NCBI RefSeq assembly: GCF_902713425.1
Contig: NC_081214.1
Coordinates: forward strand, 11,008,641-11,072,640
Direction: 5' to 3'
DNA length: 64,000 bases
From: Acipenser ruthenus
Taxonomy: Eukaryota
Below, piece after piece: positions 31,766-37,700 of this stretch (the stretch's first letter is position 1; every line of letters starts with the position of its first letter). Made by a program: the position numbers.

Positions 31766-34700
31766 TTTTTTTTTATATGTTTTGGACCTGGAAGCCATCA
31801 ATGCTTTGATTTTGTACATGGAGTGCACCGGGAACACAATCACATGAAGGGACTTCATTTTGTAGCTAGCCCTGGAACAGGGGGGGTAGCCAGGTTTTTG
31901 GACGGAGTGTGGCGGGGGGGGGGGGGGGGGAGGGGTAGCCAGGGTTTTTGGACGGAGTGTGGCGGGGGGGGGGGGGGGGGTGGCCAGGTTTTTGGACGGA
32001 GTGTGGCAGGGGGGGAGGAGGGGTAGCCAGGTTTTTGGACGGAGTGTGGGGGGGGGAAGAGCTCCCTGGGCAGGGTGGGGATACCCGCCGGCTCCTGCGG
32101 GGTCACGCATGGCCACCCTACCACCGAGCCCCTTTGCTGGCTCCAGTCTTTTGACCGCATACTGGAGCTCCAAGGCAAGAAACCAGTTCACCAAGGTGTT
32201 GGACATGCCGGGAGGTGGGTCACATTGCTCGGGATTGCCCTGCCATGGAATGTAACATCATTCGACCACGTAAGAGTGTTCAATTACCTCAGTCACTCCA
32301 ACAGATGAGTTTTGTTATTCCTGTAACTGTGGATGGTACACAAACCCAAGCTGTCTTTGATTCAGGGTGTAGTCAGTCCCTAATCCAGAGAGATTAATCT
32401 CACCGGGGCATAAACCAATATTGGGATGGGTACATAATAAATGTGTTCACGGGGATGTGCGCACTTATCCAAAGGTTGATGTAAATTTAAAAATTGGCCC
32501 GCAGATCTCATCCGGCCCAGGGGGTTTGTTTATTTTAAGAGCTCCAAGTCCCTTTAACACTTCTGCCTCTTATGCTAAAGTTATTTAGAAACTGGGTAGG
32601 AACAGGTCGACATGTGGGGCATGGAGGACATGGACAACTTTGTAAAAACCTGTGAAAAGTAATCATTTAATCTATTTGCTTTTTTTTTCTTCATCTATGA
32701 TTTTGCCATTTGTGTCTCTTACGCATGTTTCACGATAAAATGCTTCTATTGCTAACTAGTTCGGAGTCTAAACTTCTGGCGAAGTGGCAAGGACCTTACA
32801 TGCTGAATTGGGACGGTGGATTATGAGATCTGCCAGCTGGAGCGACAGAGAAAAGCACATTTATCATGTAAACCTCTTGAAGCCCTGGTTGCAACAGGGG
32901 GCTTTGTTAGTGGAGCAAAAGCAGATGGCGTCACAGACCTGGGACCTGATCTCTCTCTGTGTTGGCGAAAAAAGGGTCGGTACACATAGATAATCTGACA
33001 CCAATACAGAAATGTGTCTTAGTTTTATAGTAAATAGTCTCTATTTGTTTATTTGATTGTTTGTTTTGTTCGTAGTTGTGTTTGTGCTGACTTTGGGTCA
33101 GCTGGCACAGCTGTCGTTGTGATCCTGACAGCACAGTGTCGGTGGAGGAATGCCTGCTCGCTATCAGTGAGGTGGTAGGAGAAGGTAAAATAAAATCAAC
33201 GTCACGCATGAATAAAGGGTTAGTTATATTTTTCAGTGAAACACAAGCTGTAGATATGCTGGTGCAGGAAGGATCTGTGGTTAAAGGAAGTCTGGTGATG
33301 GTGTCTCCGCTAGCTACACCTGTAACTAAGGTGATTCTGTCAAATGTGCCCCCTTTCCTTAATGAGTTGCTGGAAAGGGCGCTTTCAAGGTATGGAAAAT
33401 TAACATCCCCGATTAGGTCGATACCGTTAGGATGCAAAGATCCCAAACTAAAGCATGTCATGTCATTTAGAAGGCAGGTATTCATTTTATTAAACAATCC
33501 TAATGTAGATATTGATGTAGCTTGGACATTTACTGTGGAAGGAAGCAACGGTGTTGTCTTTGCTAGCACTAACACAATGCGCTGTTTTAAATGTGGAGCG
33601 CAGGGACATCAGCGTAAAAACTGTCAGAGTAGAGCCTGAGAGAACAGGGTGAAATGGGCGGGGAGGAAGTCGGGGATGATCGGGGAGAACGGGAGGAAGA
33701 TCCGCGGCAGCCAGAGTCACTGGCAGGGCCAGGAGAACCAACTGAGCTAATAGAACAGACAACAGAGACCGCTGGAAATCAAGAATTCGCTGTGGTGGAA
33801 AGAAAGGAAAAAAATATAAAAACACAAGTTACAGATCTTAAAGAAAATGAAAGTGTGTCGGAGCGGAGCTCTGGAGCGGTCTTACTGGACCAGGGGCTCT
33901 CTCAGCCCATTGGCTCTGAAGAAGTGGATGGTAAGGAGATTGGGCTCAGGTCTGATAAGAGACTGAGGTTCGGGTCTGGGAGCCACGGCGCTGCTGGAGT
34001 GGAATCTCGTGCTGTGGGGGCTCCTGACTTGAACCCGGGGAGGAGTGACGGTGGCTCTGGGTCTCTACAGTGCCTTGCGAAAGTATTCGGCCCCCTTGAA
34101 CTTTGCGACCTTTTGCCACATTTCAGGCTTCAAACATAAAGATATGAAACTGTAATTTTTTGTGAAGAATCAACAACAAGTGGGACACAATCATGAAGTG
34201 GAACGAAATTTATTGGATATTTCAAACTTTTTTAACAAATAAAAAACTGAAAAATTGGGCGTGCAAAATTATTCAGCCCCCTTAAGTTAATACTTTGTAG
34301 CGCCACCTTTTGCTGCGATTACAGCTGTAAGTCGCTTGGGGTATGTCTCTATCAGTTTTGCACATCGAGAGACTGAAATTTTTGCCCATTCCTCCTTGCA
34401 AAACAGCTCGAGCTCAGTGAGGTTGGATGGAGAGCATTTGTGAACAGCAGTTTTCAGTTCTTTCCACAGATTCTCGATTGGATTCAGGTCTGGACTTTGA
34501 CTTGGCCATTCTAACACCTGGATATGTTTATTTGTGAACCATTCCATTGTAGATTTTGCTTTATGTTTTGGATCATTGTCTTGTTGGAAGACAAATCTCC
34601 GTCCCAGTCTCAGGTCTTTTGCAGACTCCATCAGGTTTTCTTCCAGAATGGTCCTGTATTTGGCTCCATCCATCTTCCCATCAATTTTAACCATCTTCCC

Positions 34701-37700
34701 TGTCCCTGCTGAAGAAAAGCAGGCCCAAACCATGATGCTGCCACCACCATGTTTGACAGTGGGGATGGTGTGTTCAGGGTGATGAGCTGTGTTGCTTTTA
34801 CGCCAAACATAACGTTTTGCATTGTTGCCAAAAAGTTCGATTTTGGTTTCATCCGACCAGAGCACCTTCTTCCACATGTTTGGTGTGTCTCCCAGGTGGC
34901 TTGTGGCAAACTGTAAACGACACTTTTTATGGATATCTTTAAGAAATGGCTTTCTTCTTGCCACTCTTCCATAAAGGCCAGATTTGTGCAGTATACGACT
35001 GATTGTTGTCCCATGGACAGAGTCTCCCACCTCAGCTGTAGATCTCTGCAGTTCATCCAGAGTGATCATGGGCCTCTTGGCTGCATCTCTGATCAGTCTT
35101 CTCCTTGTATGAGCTGAAAGTTTAGAGGGACGGCCAGGTCTTGGTAGATTTGCAGTGGTCTGATACTCCTTCCATTTCAATATTATCGCTTGCACAGTGC
35201 TCCTTGGGATGTTTAAAGCTTGGGAAATCTTTTTGTATCCAAATCCGGCTTTAAACTTCTCCACAACAGTATCTCGGACCTGCCTGGTGTGTTCCTTGTT
35301 CTTCATGATGCTCTCTGCGCTTTAAACGGACCTCTGAGACTATCACAGTGCAGGTGCATTTATACGGAGACTTGATTACACACAGGTGGATTCTATTTAT
35401 CATCATTAGTCATTTAGGTCAACATTGGATCATTCAGAGATCCTCACTGAACTTCTGGAGAGAGTTTGCTGCACTGAAAGTAAAGGGGCTGAATAATTTT
35501 GCTCGCCCAATTTTTCAGTTTTTTATTTGTTAAAAAAGTTTGAAATATCCAATAAATTTCATTCCACTTCATGATTGTGTACCACTTGTTGTTGATTCTT
35601 CACAAAAAATTACAGTTTCATATCTTTATGTTTGAAGCCTGAAATGTGGCAAAAGGTCACAAAGTTCAAGGGGGCCGAATACTTTCGCAAGGCACTGTAC
35701 CTGGAGCTGCTGTGCCTCCCTGTTCGGAGGGAGAGGAGTGCAGCGCTGAGTCTCTACATGGAGTTGCTGTGCCTCCCTGTTCAGAGGGAGAGGAGCGCAG
35801 CGCTGAGACTCTACCTGGAGCTGCTCTGCCTCCCTGTTCAGAGGGAGAGGAGCGCAGCGCTGAGTCTCTACCTGGAGCTGCTGTGCCTCCCTGTTCAGAG
35901 GGAGAGGAGCGCAGTGTTGAGTCTCTACCTGGAGCTGCGTGCCTCCCTGTTCAGAGGGAGAGGAGCGCAGCGCTGAGTCTCTACTTGGCGCTGCTGTGAA
36001 TCCATCTCTGTCTGACTCACAACAGGCAGTAGCAGAGCTAAAGGGAGAGGAGCAGCTGAAAACATCGACGGTCAATGACAGTGAGGAGTATGAGGAGAGG
36101 GAGATGGGAGCTGTAGACAGCGGCAAGGTCTTGGACTCTTCGCTGTTCTCCGACATTACTGACAGCCAAACTACCAGGAAAAAACTGTATTCAGTCAACA
36201 AAATAAGAGTTTTTGGATCAAACAAAAGGTAGGAGAGGTGTAGATATAAAACAGTTGTTTCCAGATTTGAAATTGTTTTTGAATTCTGCACATATAGCCC
36301 TCAAGAAAGTCACAACACAAGAATTAGATCAACCAAAACAGTATAGACTGAAGAAATTCATGCAAACAATTAGGAAAACATTACATCAGAAAACCAAAGT
36401 ATAAATATTTATTTATTTAAAAAATGGATAGGTTTTATAGGAATTTTCCATCTTTTACTGTTTACTTTTTCTTCTTTTTTTTTTAAACTTTTTAGCCATC
36501 ATGGACAGAATTAATTTGATCTTTTAATGTCAATGGTTGTAGGCAGGATTGTAAGAGCACAGTTATTTGAATTTTTAGAACAGAAGAGGGTGGGAGTGGC
36601 TTTTTTACAGGAGACACACACACAGACAGAGAGAATGAGGCAGGATGGCTTGCTGAATGGAGAGGGCAGTGTGTGCTGAGCCACGGAACAAATAACAAAC
36701 AGCACAGGGGTGGCTGTGCTTTTTCAACCAGGTTTGGAAGTTGACATTTTAGATTTTAAAGAGATAATTAGAGGGAGGCTTGTAAAAGTGAGGACTAAGA
36801 TAGAGAACTTTTGATTTTATTAATGTTTATGCTCCAAATATAGGAAGGGATAGAATTGTATTCCTGAATGTTTTAAAGCAGACTCTTTTGACAGTACATG
36901 ATGATGATATGTGAATAGTGGGAGGGGATTTTAACTGTACAGTAGATTTTAATAAGGATAGGAATAGTATTGAACCTCATCCACCTTCAGCGAGAGAATT
37001 GGCTGCTATTTTAAAGTTCAGTGGCTTGGTTGATGTTTGGAGGTGTCTGCATCCCACCACTTGCCAGTATACCTGGTCACACCGCCTTTCTCAGTATACA
37101 GTTAGAGCAAGACTGGACAGGATATACACACTCAAACACCACCTCAATAAATTCAAACAAGCAACAATAATACCGAACAGCTTGTCTGACCATCATTGCA
37201 CTCTGATCACAGTAATTACAGGTAAAGAAATACACAGAGCATCTCAGTGGTATTCCAACACCAAATTATTGCAAAACACTAATTTTACAAAACAGTTTAA
37301 GGATTTTTGGTTAAAATGACAAGAGCAAAAAAGCCAATTTAAGCATCTGAGGCAGTGGTGGGATATAGGAAAAACACAAATTAAATTATTTTGTCACCTT
37401 AGACATAACCAAGTCACTGAACACAGTCATAAGAGCTAGAGAGAGAGATCCTACAGTTAGAGACTGAGCAGAGCACAGCTGCAAAGGAGACCCTGGTGGA
37501 GCGGAGACGAGCTTTGGGCAGCATGCTGGAGGAGAAGGTGCGGGGGGCACAAGTGCGATCTCGATTTATTGAGCTGAGAGATATGGATGCTCCTACAAGC
37601 TTCTTTGGTTTAGAGAAGAAGAGAGCAAATCGGAAGCAGTTGTCCTGTGTTCGGCTGCCCTGCGGTAGAGAGTTGACTGGTCAGGAGGAGATTAATGATG

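What the first reader, a model, noticed from the sequence alone, without database searches (positions are those of the whole stretch)
34068..35697. Apparently autonomous Tc1-like transposon with intact 339-aa transposase and perfect ~230-bp IR/DR ends
The transposase ORF is uninterrupted and retains all DDE-domain signature residues (DNDPKH, SPDLNPIENLW). Both terminal inverted repeats are complete and near-perfectly inverted, and the element is flanked by the TA target dinucleotide.

Intact Tc1 copies are rare in vertebrate genomes. The reconstructed Sleeping Beauty element had to be resurrected from dead copies. A naturally intact copy is a candidate active element and a potential tool.

It inserted into the acidic C-terminal part of a LINE ORF1, so the insertion post-dates that LINE.
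Basis: partly seen in the sequence, partly recalled or inferred. Interest (0 to 1): 0.55.

Follow-up and report, generated by a model that had tools for sequence, protein, structure and literature searches.

The report
Known fish jumping gene, young copy
This is a real, structurally complete copy of an already described fish Tc1 transposon family (the most abundant one in rainbow trout), sitting in what looks like a sturgeon genome, so it is an ordinary element whose main interest is that it must have crossed between very distant fish lineages.

Summary
A 1,630-bp Tc1 element (34068-35697) is flanked by TA. It has 217-bp IR/DR ends and an uninterrupted 339-aa DD34E transposase on the minus strand. 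The ends are not perfect. There are 5 mismatches, and 4 are private mutations of one arm, one of them in a transposase-binding repeat.

The element is not a rare survivor. It is 98.6% identical over its full length to omyk_TCE_37, also known as Glan or DTOmy8, of the Passport-like clade. That family is published as the most abundant, recently active, insertion-polymorphic Tc1 of rainbow trout. Protein databases hold thousands of full-length 336/339-aa ORFs of it.

The copy carries a private R99G change in the DNA-binding domain, so its activity is unproven.

An intact paralogue shows the target TA lies inside the acidic tail of a Tx1-type LINE ORF1.

One result was unexpected. The surrounding retroelements match only Acipenser sinensis contigs (87-94% DNA identity). 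One of those contigs carries a 99.2% identical copy of the same Tc1 subfamily. The host is therefore sturgeon-like, which implies recent horizontal transfer between sturgeon and salmonid lineages. That kind of event is well documented for fish Tc1 elements.

The parts
34066..34067 (.). TA target-site duplication, left copy
   Evidence: Sequence read directly. The empty-site reconstruction restores the 57-bp repeat unit.
34068..34284 (-). Inverted repeat distal to the transposase start (3' IR in the sense of the gene), 217 bp. It matches the family consensus at all positions where the two arms differ, apart from the family-wide asymmetry at position 214.
34076..34097 (-). Outer direct-repeat core of the 3' IR (TGCGAAAGTATTCGGCCCCCTT), a presumed transposase binding site
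   Evidence: outer/inner alignment, 0 of 1000 shuffles reach the score. The binding role is inferred from the Sleeping Beauty/Passport IR/DR architecture (PMC2651795; PMC2198921).
34262..34283 (-). Inner direct-repeat core of the 3' IR (TGCAAAATTATTCAGCCCCCTT)
34209..34214 (-). AATAAA polyadenylation-like signal, 73 nt downstream of the stop codon, inside the 3' IR
   Evidence: sense position 1484. The function is inferred.
34287..35306 (-). Transposase ORF of 339 aa. It has a PAI+RED paired-like DNA-binding domain, a GRPS AT-hook-like motif at residue 58, an RRKP...KK nuclear-localisation-like stretch at 117-128, and a DD34E catalytic domain (D152, D243, E278). R99G (window 35012) is private to this copy. 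K132Q (34913) is shared with the A. sinensis copy. There is a private synonymous change at 34854.
35307..35480 (-). 5' untranslated region between the IR and the ATG, with a TATA-like GTATAAATG about 45 nt upstream of the ATG
   Evidence: The promoter role is inferred.
35481..35697 (-). Inverted repeat proximal to the transposase start (5' IR), 217 bp. It has four private substitutions, at window 35659, 35581, 35561 and 35503. Those at 35659 and 35561 are CpG-to-TpG changes. The one at 35503 changes the first base of the inner direct-repeat core (TGC to AGC).
35698..35699 (.). TA target-site duplication, right copy
33136..34067 (+). Host Tx1-type LINE ORF1, upstream part: RRM-like region, CCHC knuckle and the start of the acidic tail. 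A frameshift near 33640 breaks it in this copy.
   Evidence: Pfam zf-CCHC, borderline. Homologues include 'Transposon TX1 uncharacterized 82 kDa protein'. A continuous ORF1 exists in the paralogue L025. DNA identity to L025 is 91.9%.
35700..36232 (+). Host LINE ORF1, downstream part. It contains a 57-bp tandem array (about 5.5 units to 36003, with a 1-bp deletion in unit 5) and then the ORF1 C-terminus.
36918..43574 (+). Remains of the host LINE ORF2: endonuclease-like part 36918-37912, RT 41141-41818, C-terminal part to about 43574. It is interrupted by a 3.1-kb segment (37890-40967) that is absent from the paralogues.
   Evidence: (RVT_1 E = 5e-30).

Best explanation
The feature is a young, structurally complete copy of a known Tc1/mariner transposon. 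It belongs to the DD34E, IR/DR type, in the Passport-like clade. The family has been described as Glan, DTOmy8 and omyk_TCE_37.

It arrived by ordinary cut-and-paste transposition. By analogy with Sleeping Beauty and Passport, a transposase bound the outer and inner direct repeats of both 217-bp inverted repeats, excised the element, and integrated it at a TA, which was duplicated. The target lay in the first unit of a 57-bp tandem array inside the acidic tail of ORF1 of an older, already decaying Tx1-type LINE.

The host sequence is sturgeon-like, yet the element is 98.6% identical to the rainbow-trout consensus. The family must therefore have moved horizontally and recently between the sturgeon and salmonid lineages, or into both from a third source.

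The copy still encodes a full-length transposase with all catalytic residues. Since insertion it has acquired six private substitutions. Four are in one IR, one of them in a binding repeat, and one is R99G at the start of the RED recognition helix. Whether it is autonomous today is open. I put the chance that both the protein and the ends are functional at about one in three.

Shown here: the anatomy, family identity, target site, relative age and host context. Inferred: the binding-site roles, the transposition mechanism, the horizontal transfer and the activity estimate.
For: Anatomy.

Family identity:
- 97.98% BLAST identity over 1-1630 versus 1-1621 of omyk_TCE_37, and 98.58% counting substitutions only.
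- 97.2% and 96.4% to DTOmy8-4 and DTOmy8-5 from the de Boer 2007 supplement.
- Glan and the Passport-like clade as context.

Abundance and recent activity of the family: PMC7959816; protein clusters.

Target site and ORF1.

Host context:
- LINE ORF1 best hits are Acipenser sinensis at 80% and 73%, then 57% or less in other taxa.
- Gypsy integrase best hits are A. sinensis at 75-88%, then 57% or less (Salmo trutta 54%).
- DNA identity to A. sinensis contigs is 90.6-93.8% for the LINE and 87.5% for the Gypsy element.
- No salmonid Tc1 family is present in the window.

Same Tc1 subfamily in A. sinensis: L025 23491-24838 is 99.2% identical. It shares the subfamily-diagnostic positions and the extra 9 bp.

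Private mutations.

Horizontal transfer of Tc1 among ray-finned fishes is common (PMC7070016; PMC3516227).
Against: - The species of the window is not established. NCBI tags the A. sinensis proteins 'UNVERIFIED_CONTAM', and none of the 11 ORF translations of the window that I looked up is in the protein collection.
- Copy number in the host is known only from one copy in 160 kb of A. sinensis sequence plus the window.
- The consensus for the sturgeon-type subfamily rests on 3-4 partial copies, so 'private' may overstate some changes.
- No functional data exist for any member of this family. Krasnov 2005 found only defective transcripts.
Confidence: 0.85

Rival explanations
1. The copy is a currently active, autonomous master element. 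Its transposase and ends work, and it is a source of new insertions in the host.
For: - Open 339-aa ORF with an intact DD34E triad and all motifs.
- Only 0.37% private divergence.
- Another intact 339-aa ORF of the same subfamily exists in an independent dataset (P0001/L001).
- The sister subfamily in trout is insertion-polymorphic.
- K132Q is tolerated elsewhere in the clade. The tilapia and Xenopus sequences have Q, and the plaice sequence (the species Passport was isolated from) has E.
Against: - R99G replaces an arginine that 41 of 42 family members keep, as do gar, tilapia, Xenopus and plaice relatives.
- Four private substitutions lie in the 5' IR, including the first base of the inner binding repeat.
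- In a family with very many open ORFs, any single copy is a priori unlikely to be the master.
Confidence: 0.2
2. The host is really a salmonid, the element was inherited vertically within salmonids, and the 'Acipenser sinensis' matches reflect contamination of that assembly.
For: - The closest named transposase proteins are from Oncorhynchus (96-97%).
- NCBI labels the A. sinensis proteins UNVERIFIED_CONTAM.
- The window GC of 44% would fit a salmonid (the salmonid value is from my own knowledge).
Against: - No salmonid protein appears among the LINE ORF1 hits. The best salmonid Gypsy hit is only 54%, although salmonid proteomes are rich in such entries.
- None of seven salmonid Tc1 families, and no second Tc1 of any kind, is present in 64 kb.
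- The window copy carries 16 diagnostic differences plus a 9-bp indel relative to the trout consensus. It shares the differences that fall within the truncated A. sinensis copy (L025) with that copy.
- Contigs up to 5 Mb in the A. sinensis assembly carry the matching retroelements.
Confidence: 0.05
3. The element is an assembly artefact: a consensus-like collapsed repeat or a chimeric join, not a real insertion.
For: High-copy young repeats are prone to collapse in assemblies (general knowledge). The assembly method for the window is unknown.
Against: - The junctions are exact. TA|CAGTG...CACTG|TA restores both a 57-bp repeat unit and the ORF1 frame when removed.
- The copy has its own private substitutions rather than a pure consensus sequence.
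- There are no Ns in the window.
Confidence: 0.02
4. The ORF is a domesticated, host-co-opted transposase gene rather than a mobile element.
For: The ORF is open. That is the only supporting point.
Against: - It has full IRs and a TSD, and it lies inside a dead LINE.
- It is one of thousands of near-identical copies.
- Between the subfamilies, 5 differences are non-synonymous and 2 synonymous, so there is no sign of constraint (counted by hand).
Confidence: 0.01

Closest known systems
omyk_TCE_37 (rainbow trout repeat library; Liu et al. 2021, PMC7959816) = DTOmy8 (de Boer et al. 2007, PMC2198921) = Glan (Krasnov et al. 2005, PMC1192797)
   Same: Identity is 98.6% in substitutions over the full length. 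The two share the termini, the IR/DR layout, the position of the ORF, the TATA-like and AATAAA sites, and the TA target.
   Different: The window copy is the 339-aa form. It has 9 bp (CTCATCACC) that the 1,621-bp trout consensus lacks, and it differs at 16 further positions. Eight of these form four symmetric pairs in the two IRs. At five amino-acid positions (E16, R130, T258, A308, I310) it keeps the state seen in the gar sequence. Tilapia, Xenopus and plaice relatives agree at some of these positions. It also sits in sturgeon-like rather than salmonid sequence.
Passport (PPTN) from plaice, a native active Tc1 (Clark et al. 2009, PMC2651795)
   Same: They belong to the same clade, since Passport-like elements include the Eagle/Glan subfamily. 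They share the IR/DR architecture, the terminal sequence TACAGTGCCTTGC and the DD34E triad. Amino-acid identity to Pleuronectes platessa transposases is 77-79%.
   Different: This is a different family by the 80% criterion. Passport's ends read CAGTGCCTTGCATAAGTATTC, against CAGTGCCTTGCGAAAGTATTC here. Passport's activity has been demonstrated, and this element's has not.
Sleeping Beauty (reconstructed salmonid Tc1)
   Same: It has the same domain order and IR/DR logic. The catalytic domain aligns end to end with 5cr4 (E = 1e-88). D152/D243/E278 correspond to SB D153/D244/E279.
   Different: The IR sequences are unrelated: a trout SB-like end (DTOmy11-4) gives no hit in the window.
Tana1 and other sturgeon Tc1 elements
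   Same: These are also Tc1 elements with many intact copies in sturgeons. The sterlet has 299 full-length Tana1 transposases (PMC6739705).
   Different: The only named sturgeon transposase hit (Acipenser fulvescens, P0037) is 70% identical. A similar copy in A. sinensis (L027) is 71% identical. That P0037 is Tana1 is my assumption.
DTSsa1 'Group 1' Tc1 shared by lampreys and teleosts (Kuraku et al. 2012, PMC3516227)
   Same: It shows the same evolutionary pattern: 95-99% identical Tc1 copies in lineages separated by hundreds of millions of years.
   Different: It is a different Tc1 family, and DTSsa1 ends give no hit in the window.

Membership tests
Tc1/mariner superfamily, DD34E (Tc1) family | TA target-site duplication | tested here: met
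   TA lies on both sides, and the empty site is restored precisely.
Tc1/mariner superfamily, DD34E (Tc1) family | DDE catalytic triad with 34 residues between the second D and the E | tested here: met
   D152, D243, E278. They align with SB D153/D244/E279 and with 5cr4.
Tc1/mariner superfamily, DD34E (Tc1) family | N-terminal paired-like (PAI + RED) helix-turn-helix DNA-binding domain | tested here: met
   Pfam HTH_SB (E = 4e-18, residues 1-51) and HTH_Tnp_Tc3_2 (E = 4e-25, residues 68-138).
IR/DR subgroup of Tc1 elements | Inverted repeats of about 200-250 bp, each with a direct repeat at its outer and inner end | tested here: met
   The IRs are 217 bp. The outer core (9-30) and inner core (195-216) match at 19 of 22 positions, and 0 of 1000 shuffles reach the score.
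Glan / DTOmy8 / omyk_TCE_37 family | At least 80% nucleotide identity over at least 80% of the length to the family consensus | tested here: met
   BLAST identity is 97.98% over 1630 of 1630 bp. Substitution-only identity is 98.58%.
Sleeping Beauty family | SB-type IR/DR sequence and high transposase identity | tested here: not met
   Amino-acid identity is about 51%. There is no hit with the SB-like end DTOmy11-4.
Autonomous, active element | Uninterrupted transposase ORF with catalytic residues | tested here: met
Autonomous, active element | DNA-binding domain and four binding sites identical to the family consensus | tested here: not met
   R99G is private; 41 of 42 relatives have R. T195A changes the first base of the 5' inner repeat core, and the same IR has three further private changes.
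Autonomous, active element | Demonstrated excision/integration, or insertion polymorphism of this copy | not testable with these tools
   No host genome or population data are available here. Polymorphism is published only for the trout sister subfamily.
Tx1-type (L1 clade) LINE, as host of the insertion | ORF1 with a CCHC knuckle followed in the same orientation by ORF2 with endonuclease and reverse transcriptase | tested here: met
   zf-CCHC is borderline in Pfam. RVT_1 has E = 5e-30. Homologues are named Transposon TX1 82 kDa protein. The intact ORF1+ORF2 paralogue is L025 9767-14732.

The most novel reading that the evidence does not exclude
The window comes from a sturgeon, and this is a sturgeon-resident subfamily of the Tc1 family that exploded in Oncorhynchus. 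It keeps the ancestral-looking 339-aa form and has open ORFs. It would then document a very recent sturgeon-salmonid horizontal transfer, across roughly 350 million years of host divergence (date from my own knowledge). It may also still be transposing in sturgeons. That would make it, or its R99 consensus, a natural active Passport-like element and a marker for tracing the donor and route of the trout invasion.
Probability: 0.3. Interest if true: 0.5.

Novelty: new member of a known kind. Interest (0 to 1): 0.3.

Why it matters
As a candidate tool it adds little. Passport and ZB are already native active vertebrate Tc1 elements. Thousands of open ORFs of this very family are in public proteomes, and this copy carries suspicious private changes.

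Its value is evolutionary. If the host is confirmed as a sturgeon, near-identical copies of the dominant rainbow-trout Tc1 family in an acipenseriform genome would add a clean, datable case to the many Tc1 transfers among ray-finned fishes. The subfamily-diagnostic sites could help polarise who gave what to whom. The nested arrangement (Tc1 inside a LINE ORF1, with an intact paralogue available as an empty site) is a tidy textbook example for relative dating.

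Tried and rejected
- **Exact-sequence look-ups.** I looked up the transposase and ten other window ORFs in the 15-billion-protein collection. None is present, so this route gave no species identification.
- **Further copies in the window.** Searches by blastn and tblastn found none.
- **Salmonid host test.** I searched with the ends of seven salmonid Tc1 families from the de Boer supplement. There were no hits in the window or in the A. sinensis loci, so I dropped my initial assumption of a salmonid host.
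- **Pfam on the endonuclease-like LINE fragments.** 36918-37319 gave no family, and 37496-37912 gave only weak, irrelevant hits (E > 0.05). The LINE was identified through its RT, ORF1 homologues and the paralogue instead.
- **The 3.1-kb segment interrupting LINE ORF2 (37890-40967).** I looked for terminal or long terminal repeats and found none convincing, so it remains unclassified.
- **Literature on this family in sturgeon.** Three searches found nothing specific. This is absence from the held library only.
- **K132Q as a private, possibly damaging change.** I rejected this because the A. sinensis copy shares it, and Q or E occurs at that site in relatives from tilapia, Xenopus and plaice.
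- **Not done.** I did not run structure prediction. A model would not decide whether R99G or the IR changes abolish activity.

Full report
**1. The observation**

The region 34068-35697 is a 1,630-bp element bounded by TA on both sides.
- Its arms are 34066-34284 and 35481-35699, 219 nt counting the TA, and 98% complementary.
- The minus strand carries one ORF, 34287-35306, ATG to stop, 339 aa.
- Pfam places an HTH_SB domain at residues 1-51, HTH_Tnp_Tc3_2 at 68-138 and DDE_3 at 148-298.
- Residues 112-339 align without gaps to the crystallised Sleeping Beauty catalytic domain 5cr4 (E = 1e-88).
- The catalytic residues are D152, D243 and E278. There are 34 residues between the last two, matching SB D153/D244/E279 (the script indexed the third letter of DNDPKH, and I recounted by hand).
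- No other copy or fragment occurs in the 64 kb.

**2. The ends**

The IRs are 217 bp, not about 230, and they are not perfect. They have five mismatches.
- The published trout consensus has a single left/right difference, at position 214.
- The other four mismatches are at sense positions 39, 117, 137 and 195 (window 35659, 35581, 35561, 35503). All are departures of the transposase-proximal arm from every other copy I could align.
- Those at 39 and 137 are CpG-to-TpG changes.

Each IR has an outer core (positions 9-30, TGCGAAAGTATTCGGCCCCCTT) and an inner core (195-216, TGCAAAATTATTCAGCCCCCTT). No shuffle out of 1000 reached the observed alignment score. This is the IR/DR layout described for SB, Passport and the salmonid long-ITR families (PMC2198921; PMC2651795). 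Substitution 195 changes the first base of the 5' inner core.

A TATA-like GTATAAATG lies about 45 nt upstream of the ATG. An AATAAA lies 73 nt past the stop codon, inside the 3' IR. The roles of both are inferred.

**3. What family it is**

The terminal sequence led to the supplement of de Boer et al. 2007. There the rainbow-trout copies DTOmy8-4 and DTOmy8-5 start identically. Full-length identity to them is 97.2% and 96.4%, and both published copies are defective.

The element is 97.98% identical by BLAST over its whole length to omyk_TCE_37. Counting substitutions only, identity is 98.58%. Liu et al. 2021 give this 1,621-bp consensus as the most abundant Tc1-mariner family of rainbow trout. 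They describe it as recently active and as more than 2% of the genome. It accounts for 1,030 of the 1,072 polymorphic deletions of 1,610-1,630 bp among 96 fish (PMC7959816).

The low-divergence 'Glan' element of Krasnov et al. 2005 fits the same family. Clark et al. 2009 place Glan with Xenopus Eagle in the Passport-like clade.

Amino-acid identities from the database search:

| Relative | Identity |
|---|---|
| Oncorhynchus proteins | 96-97% |
| A Logan-assembled sequence (P0001) | 99% |
| Spotted gar | 91% |
| A poison frog | 87% |
| Tilapia | 82% |
| Xenopus and plaice | 79% |
| A sturgeon transposase that I take to be Tana1-like | 70% |

**4. Intact copies are not rare here**

The three best 90%-identity clusters hold 2,560, 34 and 190 sequences. 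Nearly all of the 45 members listed in the call output are 335-341 aa and come from O. mykiss or O. kisutch proteomes.

Native active vertebrate Tc1 elements are already on record (Passport, PMC2651795; ZB, PMC7913693). Surveys find tens to hundreds of intact copies of other Tc1 families in many fish (PMC9777934). One of these is the 299 full-length Tana1 genes in the sterlet (PMC6739705).

**5. This copy against its relatives**

I aligned the copy with the trout consensus, an A. sinensis copy, and two partial copies from public read or metagenome assemblies (L001, L003). The window copy has six private substitutions in 1,630 bp (0.37%):
- the four IR changes;
- A686G, which gives R99G;
- one synonymous change.

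R99 is kept by 41 of 42 family members sampled and by the gar, tilapia, Xenopus and plaice relatives. By alignment it sits just before the third helix of the RED subdomain. Its effect is unknown.

K132Q is shared with the A. sinensis copy. The tilapia and Xenopus relatives have Q at that site, and the plaice sequence has E, so it is probably harmless.

Four of the six private changes fall in 13% of the element. The Poisson probability of this is about 0.009 (my arithmetic), and I cannot explain it.

**6. The target**

Deleting 34068-35699 joins ...GGGTCTCTA to CCTGGAGCTGC.... This recreates the first unit of a 57-bp tandem array (5.5 units). It also recreates a continuous frame reading ...GGSGSL|PGAAVPPCSEGEE....

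Upstream lies an ORF with a CCHC knuckle. Downstream lie endonuclease-like and reverse-transcriptase ORFs in the same orientation. Homologues of the upstream ORF include proteins named 'Transposon TX1 uncharacterized 82 kDa protein', which to my knowledge is Tx1 ORF1.

A nearly intact paralogue in Acipenser sinensis settles the matter. L025 has an ORF1 at 9767-11002 and a 1,241-aa ORF2 at 11007-14732. In it the knuckle and the acidic tail are one ORF that runs straight through the insertion point.

The window's LINE is dead. It has a frameshift after the knuckle, a 1-bp deletion in the array, a broken ORF2, and a 3.1-kb foreign segment at 37890-40967. LINE paralogues differ by 6-10%, whereas Tc1 copies differ by about 1%. 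The Tc1 is therefore much the younger.

**7. The host**

I first assumed a salmonid host. Three results contradict that.
- The LINE ORF1 query found Acipenser sinensis proteins at 80% and 73%, nothing else above 57%, and no salmonid.
- The Gypsy integrase ORF at 2128-3777 found A. sinensis at 75-88%, nothing else above 57%, and Salmo trutta at 54%.
- No salmonid Tc1 family, and no other Tc1 at all, occurs in the window.

At the DNA level, A. sinensis contigs match the window LINE at 90.6-93.8% and the Gypsy element at 87.5%. They also match the repeat-rich blocks at 15-20 and 28-31.5 kb at 78-84%.

One of these contigs was fetched for its LINE, not for the Tc1. It carries a 3'-truncated Tc1 copy (1,348 bp) that is 99.2% identical to the window copy. 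That copy has the consensus bases at the window's four private IR sites. It also has the same subfamily-diagnostic bases and the 9-bp insertion that distinguish both from the trout consensus. In 160 kb of A. sinensis sequence this was the only copy of the subfamily.

Caveats: NCBI tags these A. sinensis proteins 'UNVERIFIED_CONTAM', and I could not name the window's species.

**8. Consequence**

If the host is acipenseriform, 98.6% identity to the trout consensus cannot be vertical. Sturgeons and teleosts separated roughly 350 million years ago (my knowledge). The family must have moved horizontally and recently.

The sturgeon-type subfamily keeps states at five amino-acid positions (E16, R130, T258, A308, I310), plus the AHHP-containing 339-aa length, that match the gar sequence. 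Tilapia, Xenopus and plaice relatives agree at some of these positions. It is therefore not derived from the 336-aa trout burst. The direction of transfer is otherwise open.

Such transfers are a known feature of Tc1 elements in ray-finned fishes. A survey inferred 975 horizontal transfer events among vertebrates, 93.7% of them involving ray-finned fishes (PMC7070016). The DTSsa1 family is shared by lampreys and teleosts at 95-99% identity (PMC3516227). I found no paper in the held library that reports this particular family in sturgeons.

**9. Verdict**

The feature is real and correctly described in outline. It is an ordinary member of a known, very abundant family. Its claim to be an active element is unproven and somewhat weakened by private changes.

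The host context adds a modestly interesting horizontal-transfer case that needs a simple BLAST against sturgeon assemblies to confirm. Novelty: a new member (a host-specific subfamily copy) of a known kind. Interest: about 0.3.

Noticed in passing
window 37890-40967: A 3.1-kb AT-rich segment interrupts the LINE ORF2. Two A. sinensis paralogues (L025, L029) run straight across this point. No terminal inverted or long terminal repeats were found, so its nature is unknown.
   Followed up: partly
L025 9767-14732 (A. sinensis contig VSKV01006220.1): A paralogue of the host Tx1-type LINE has an open 411-aa ORF1 (5'-truncated copy) and an open 1,241-aa ORF2. This LINE family may have been active recently in sturgeon.
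   Followed up: partly
window 35481-35697: Four of the six private substitutions of this Tc1 copy fall in one 217-bp IR (Poisson P about 0.009), while the other IR has none. Two of the four are CpG-to-TpG changes. I have no explanation.
   Followed up: partly
window 34068-34284 and 35481-35697 (sense positions 79/1552, 88/1543, 140/1491, 174/1457): The sturgeon-type and trout subfamilies differ at four positions of the IR spacer. In each subfamily both arms carry the same base, so the two arms have changed in concert.
   Followed up: partly
window 35700-36003 versus L025 about 10480-10560: The 57-bp coding tandem repeat in LINE ORF1 (PGAAVPPCSEGEERSAESL) has about 5.5 units in the window copy but a single unit in the A. 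sinensis paralogue.
   Followed up: partly
window about 300-5950, minus strand: A Ty3/Gypsy retrotransposon with an open 549-aa integrase-containing ORF (2128-3777), a gag/protease-like ORF (3809-4579) and an RT fragment (973-1515). It is 87.5% identical in DNA to an A. sinensis locus (L026).
   Followed up: partly
window about 15200-20000 and 28300-31500: Two related blocks are full of proline/glutamate-rich tandem repeats that read open on both strands (for example 29079-30833, 584 aa, no Pfam hit). They are 78-84% similar to A. sinensis L028 891-3490. This is an unclassified repeat family.
   Followed up: no
window 47298-49126, plus strand: An ORF with a strong DUF6729 match (48620-49126, E = 6e-60) is preceded by a 251-aa ORF with no Pfam hit. 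It is probably part of another large transposon-like gene.
   Followed up: no
window 20098-20664 and 55280-55951: Fragments of other non-LTR retrotransposons are present: a C-terminal ORF2-like piece with no Pfam hit, and an RVT_1 fragment (E = 1e-17).
   Followed up: no
protein P0072: A 339-aa protein that NCBI names 'IS630 family transposase [Escherichia coli]' is 63% identical over its full length to this fish transposase. It looks like vertebrate Tc1 DNA contaminating a bacterial record.
   Followed up: no
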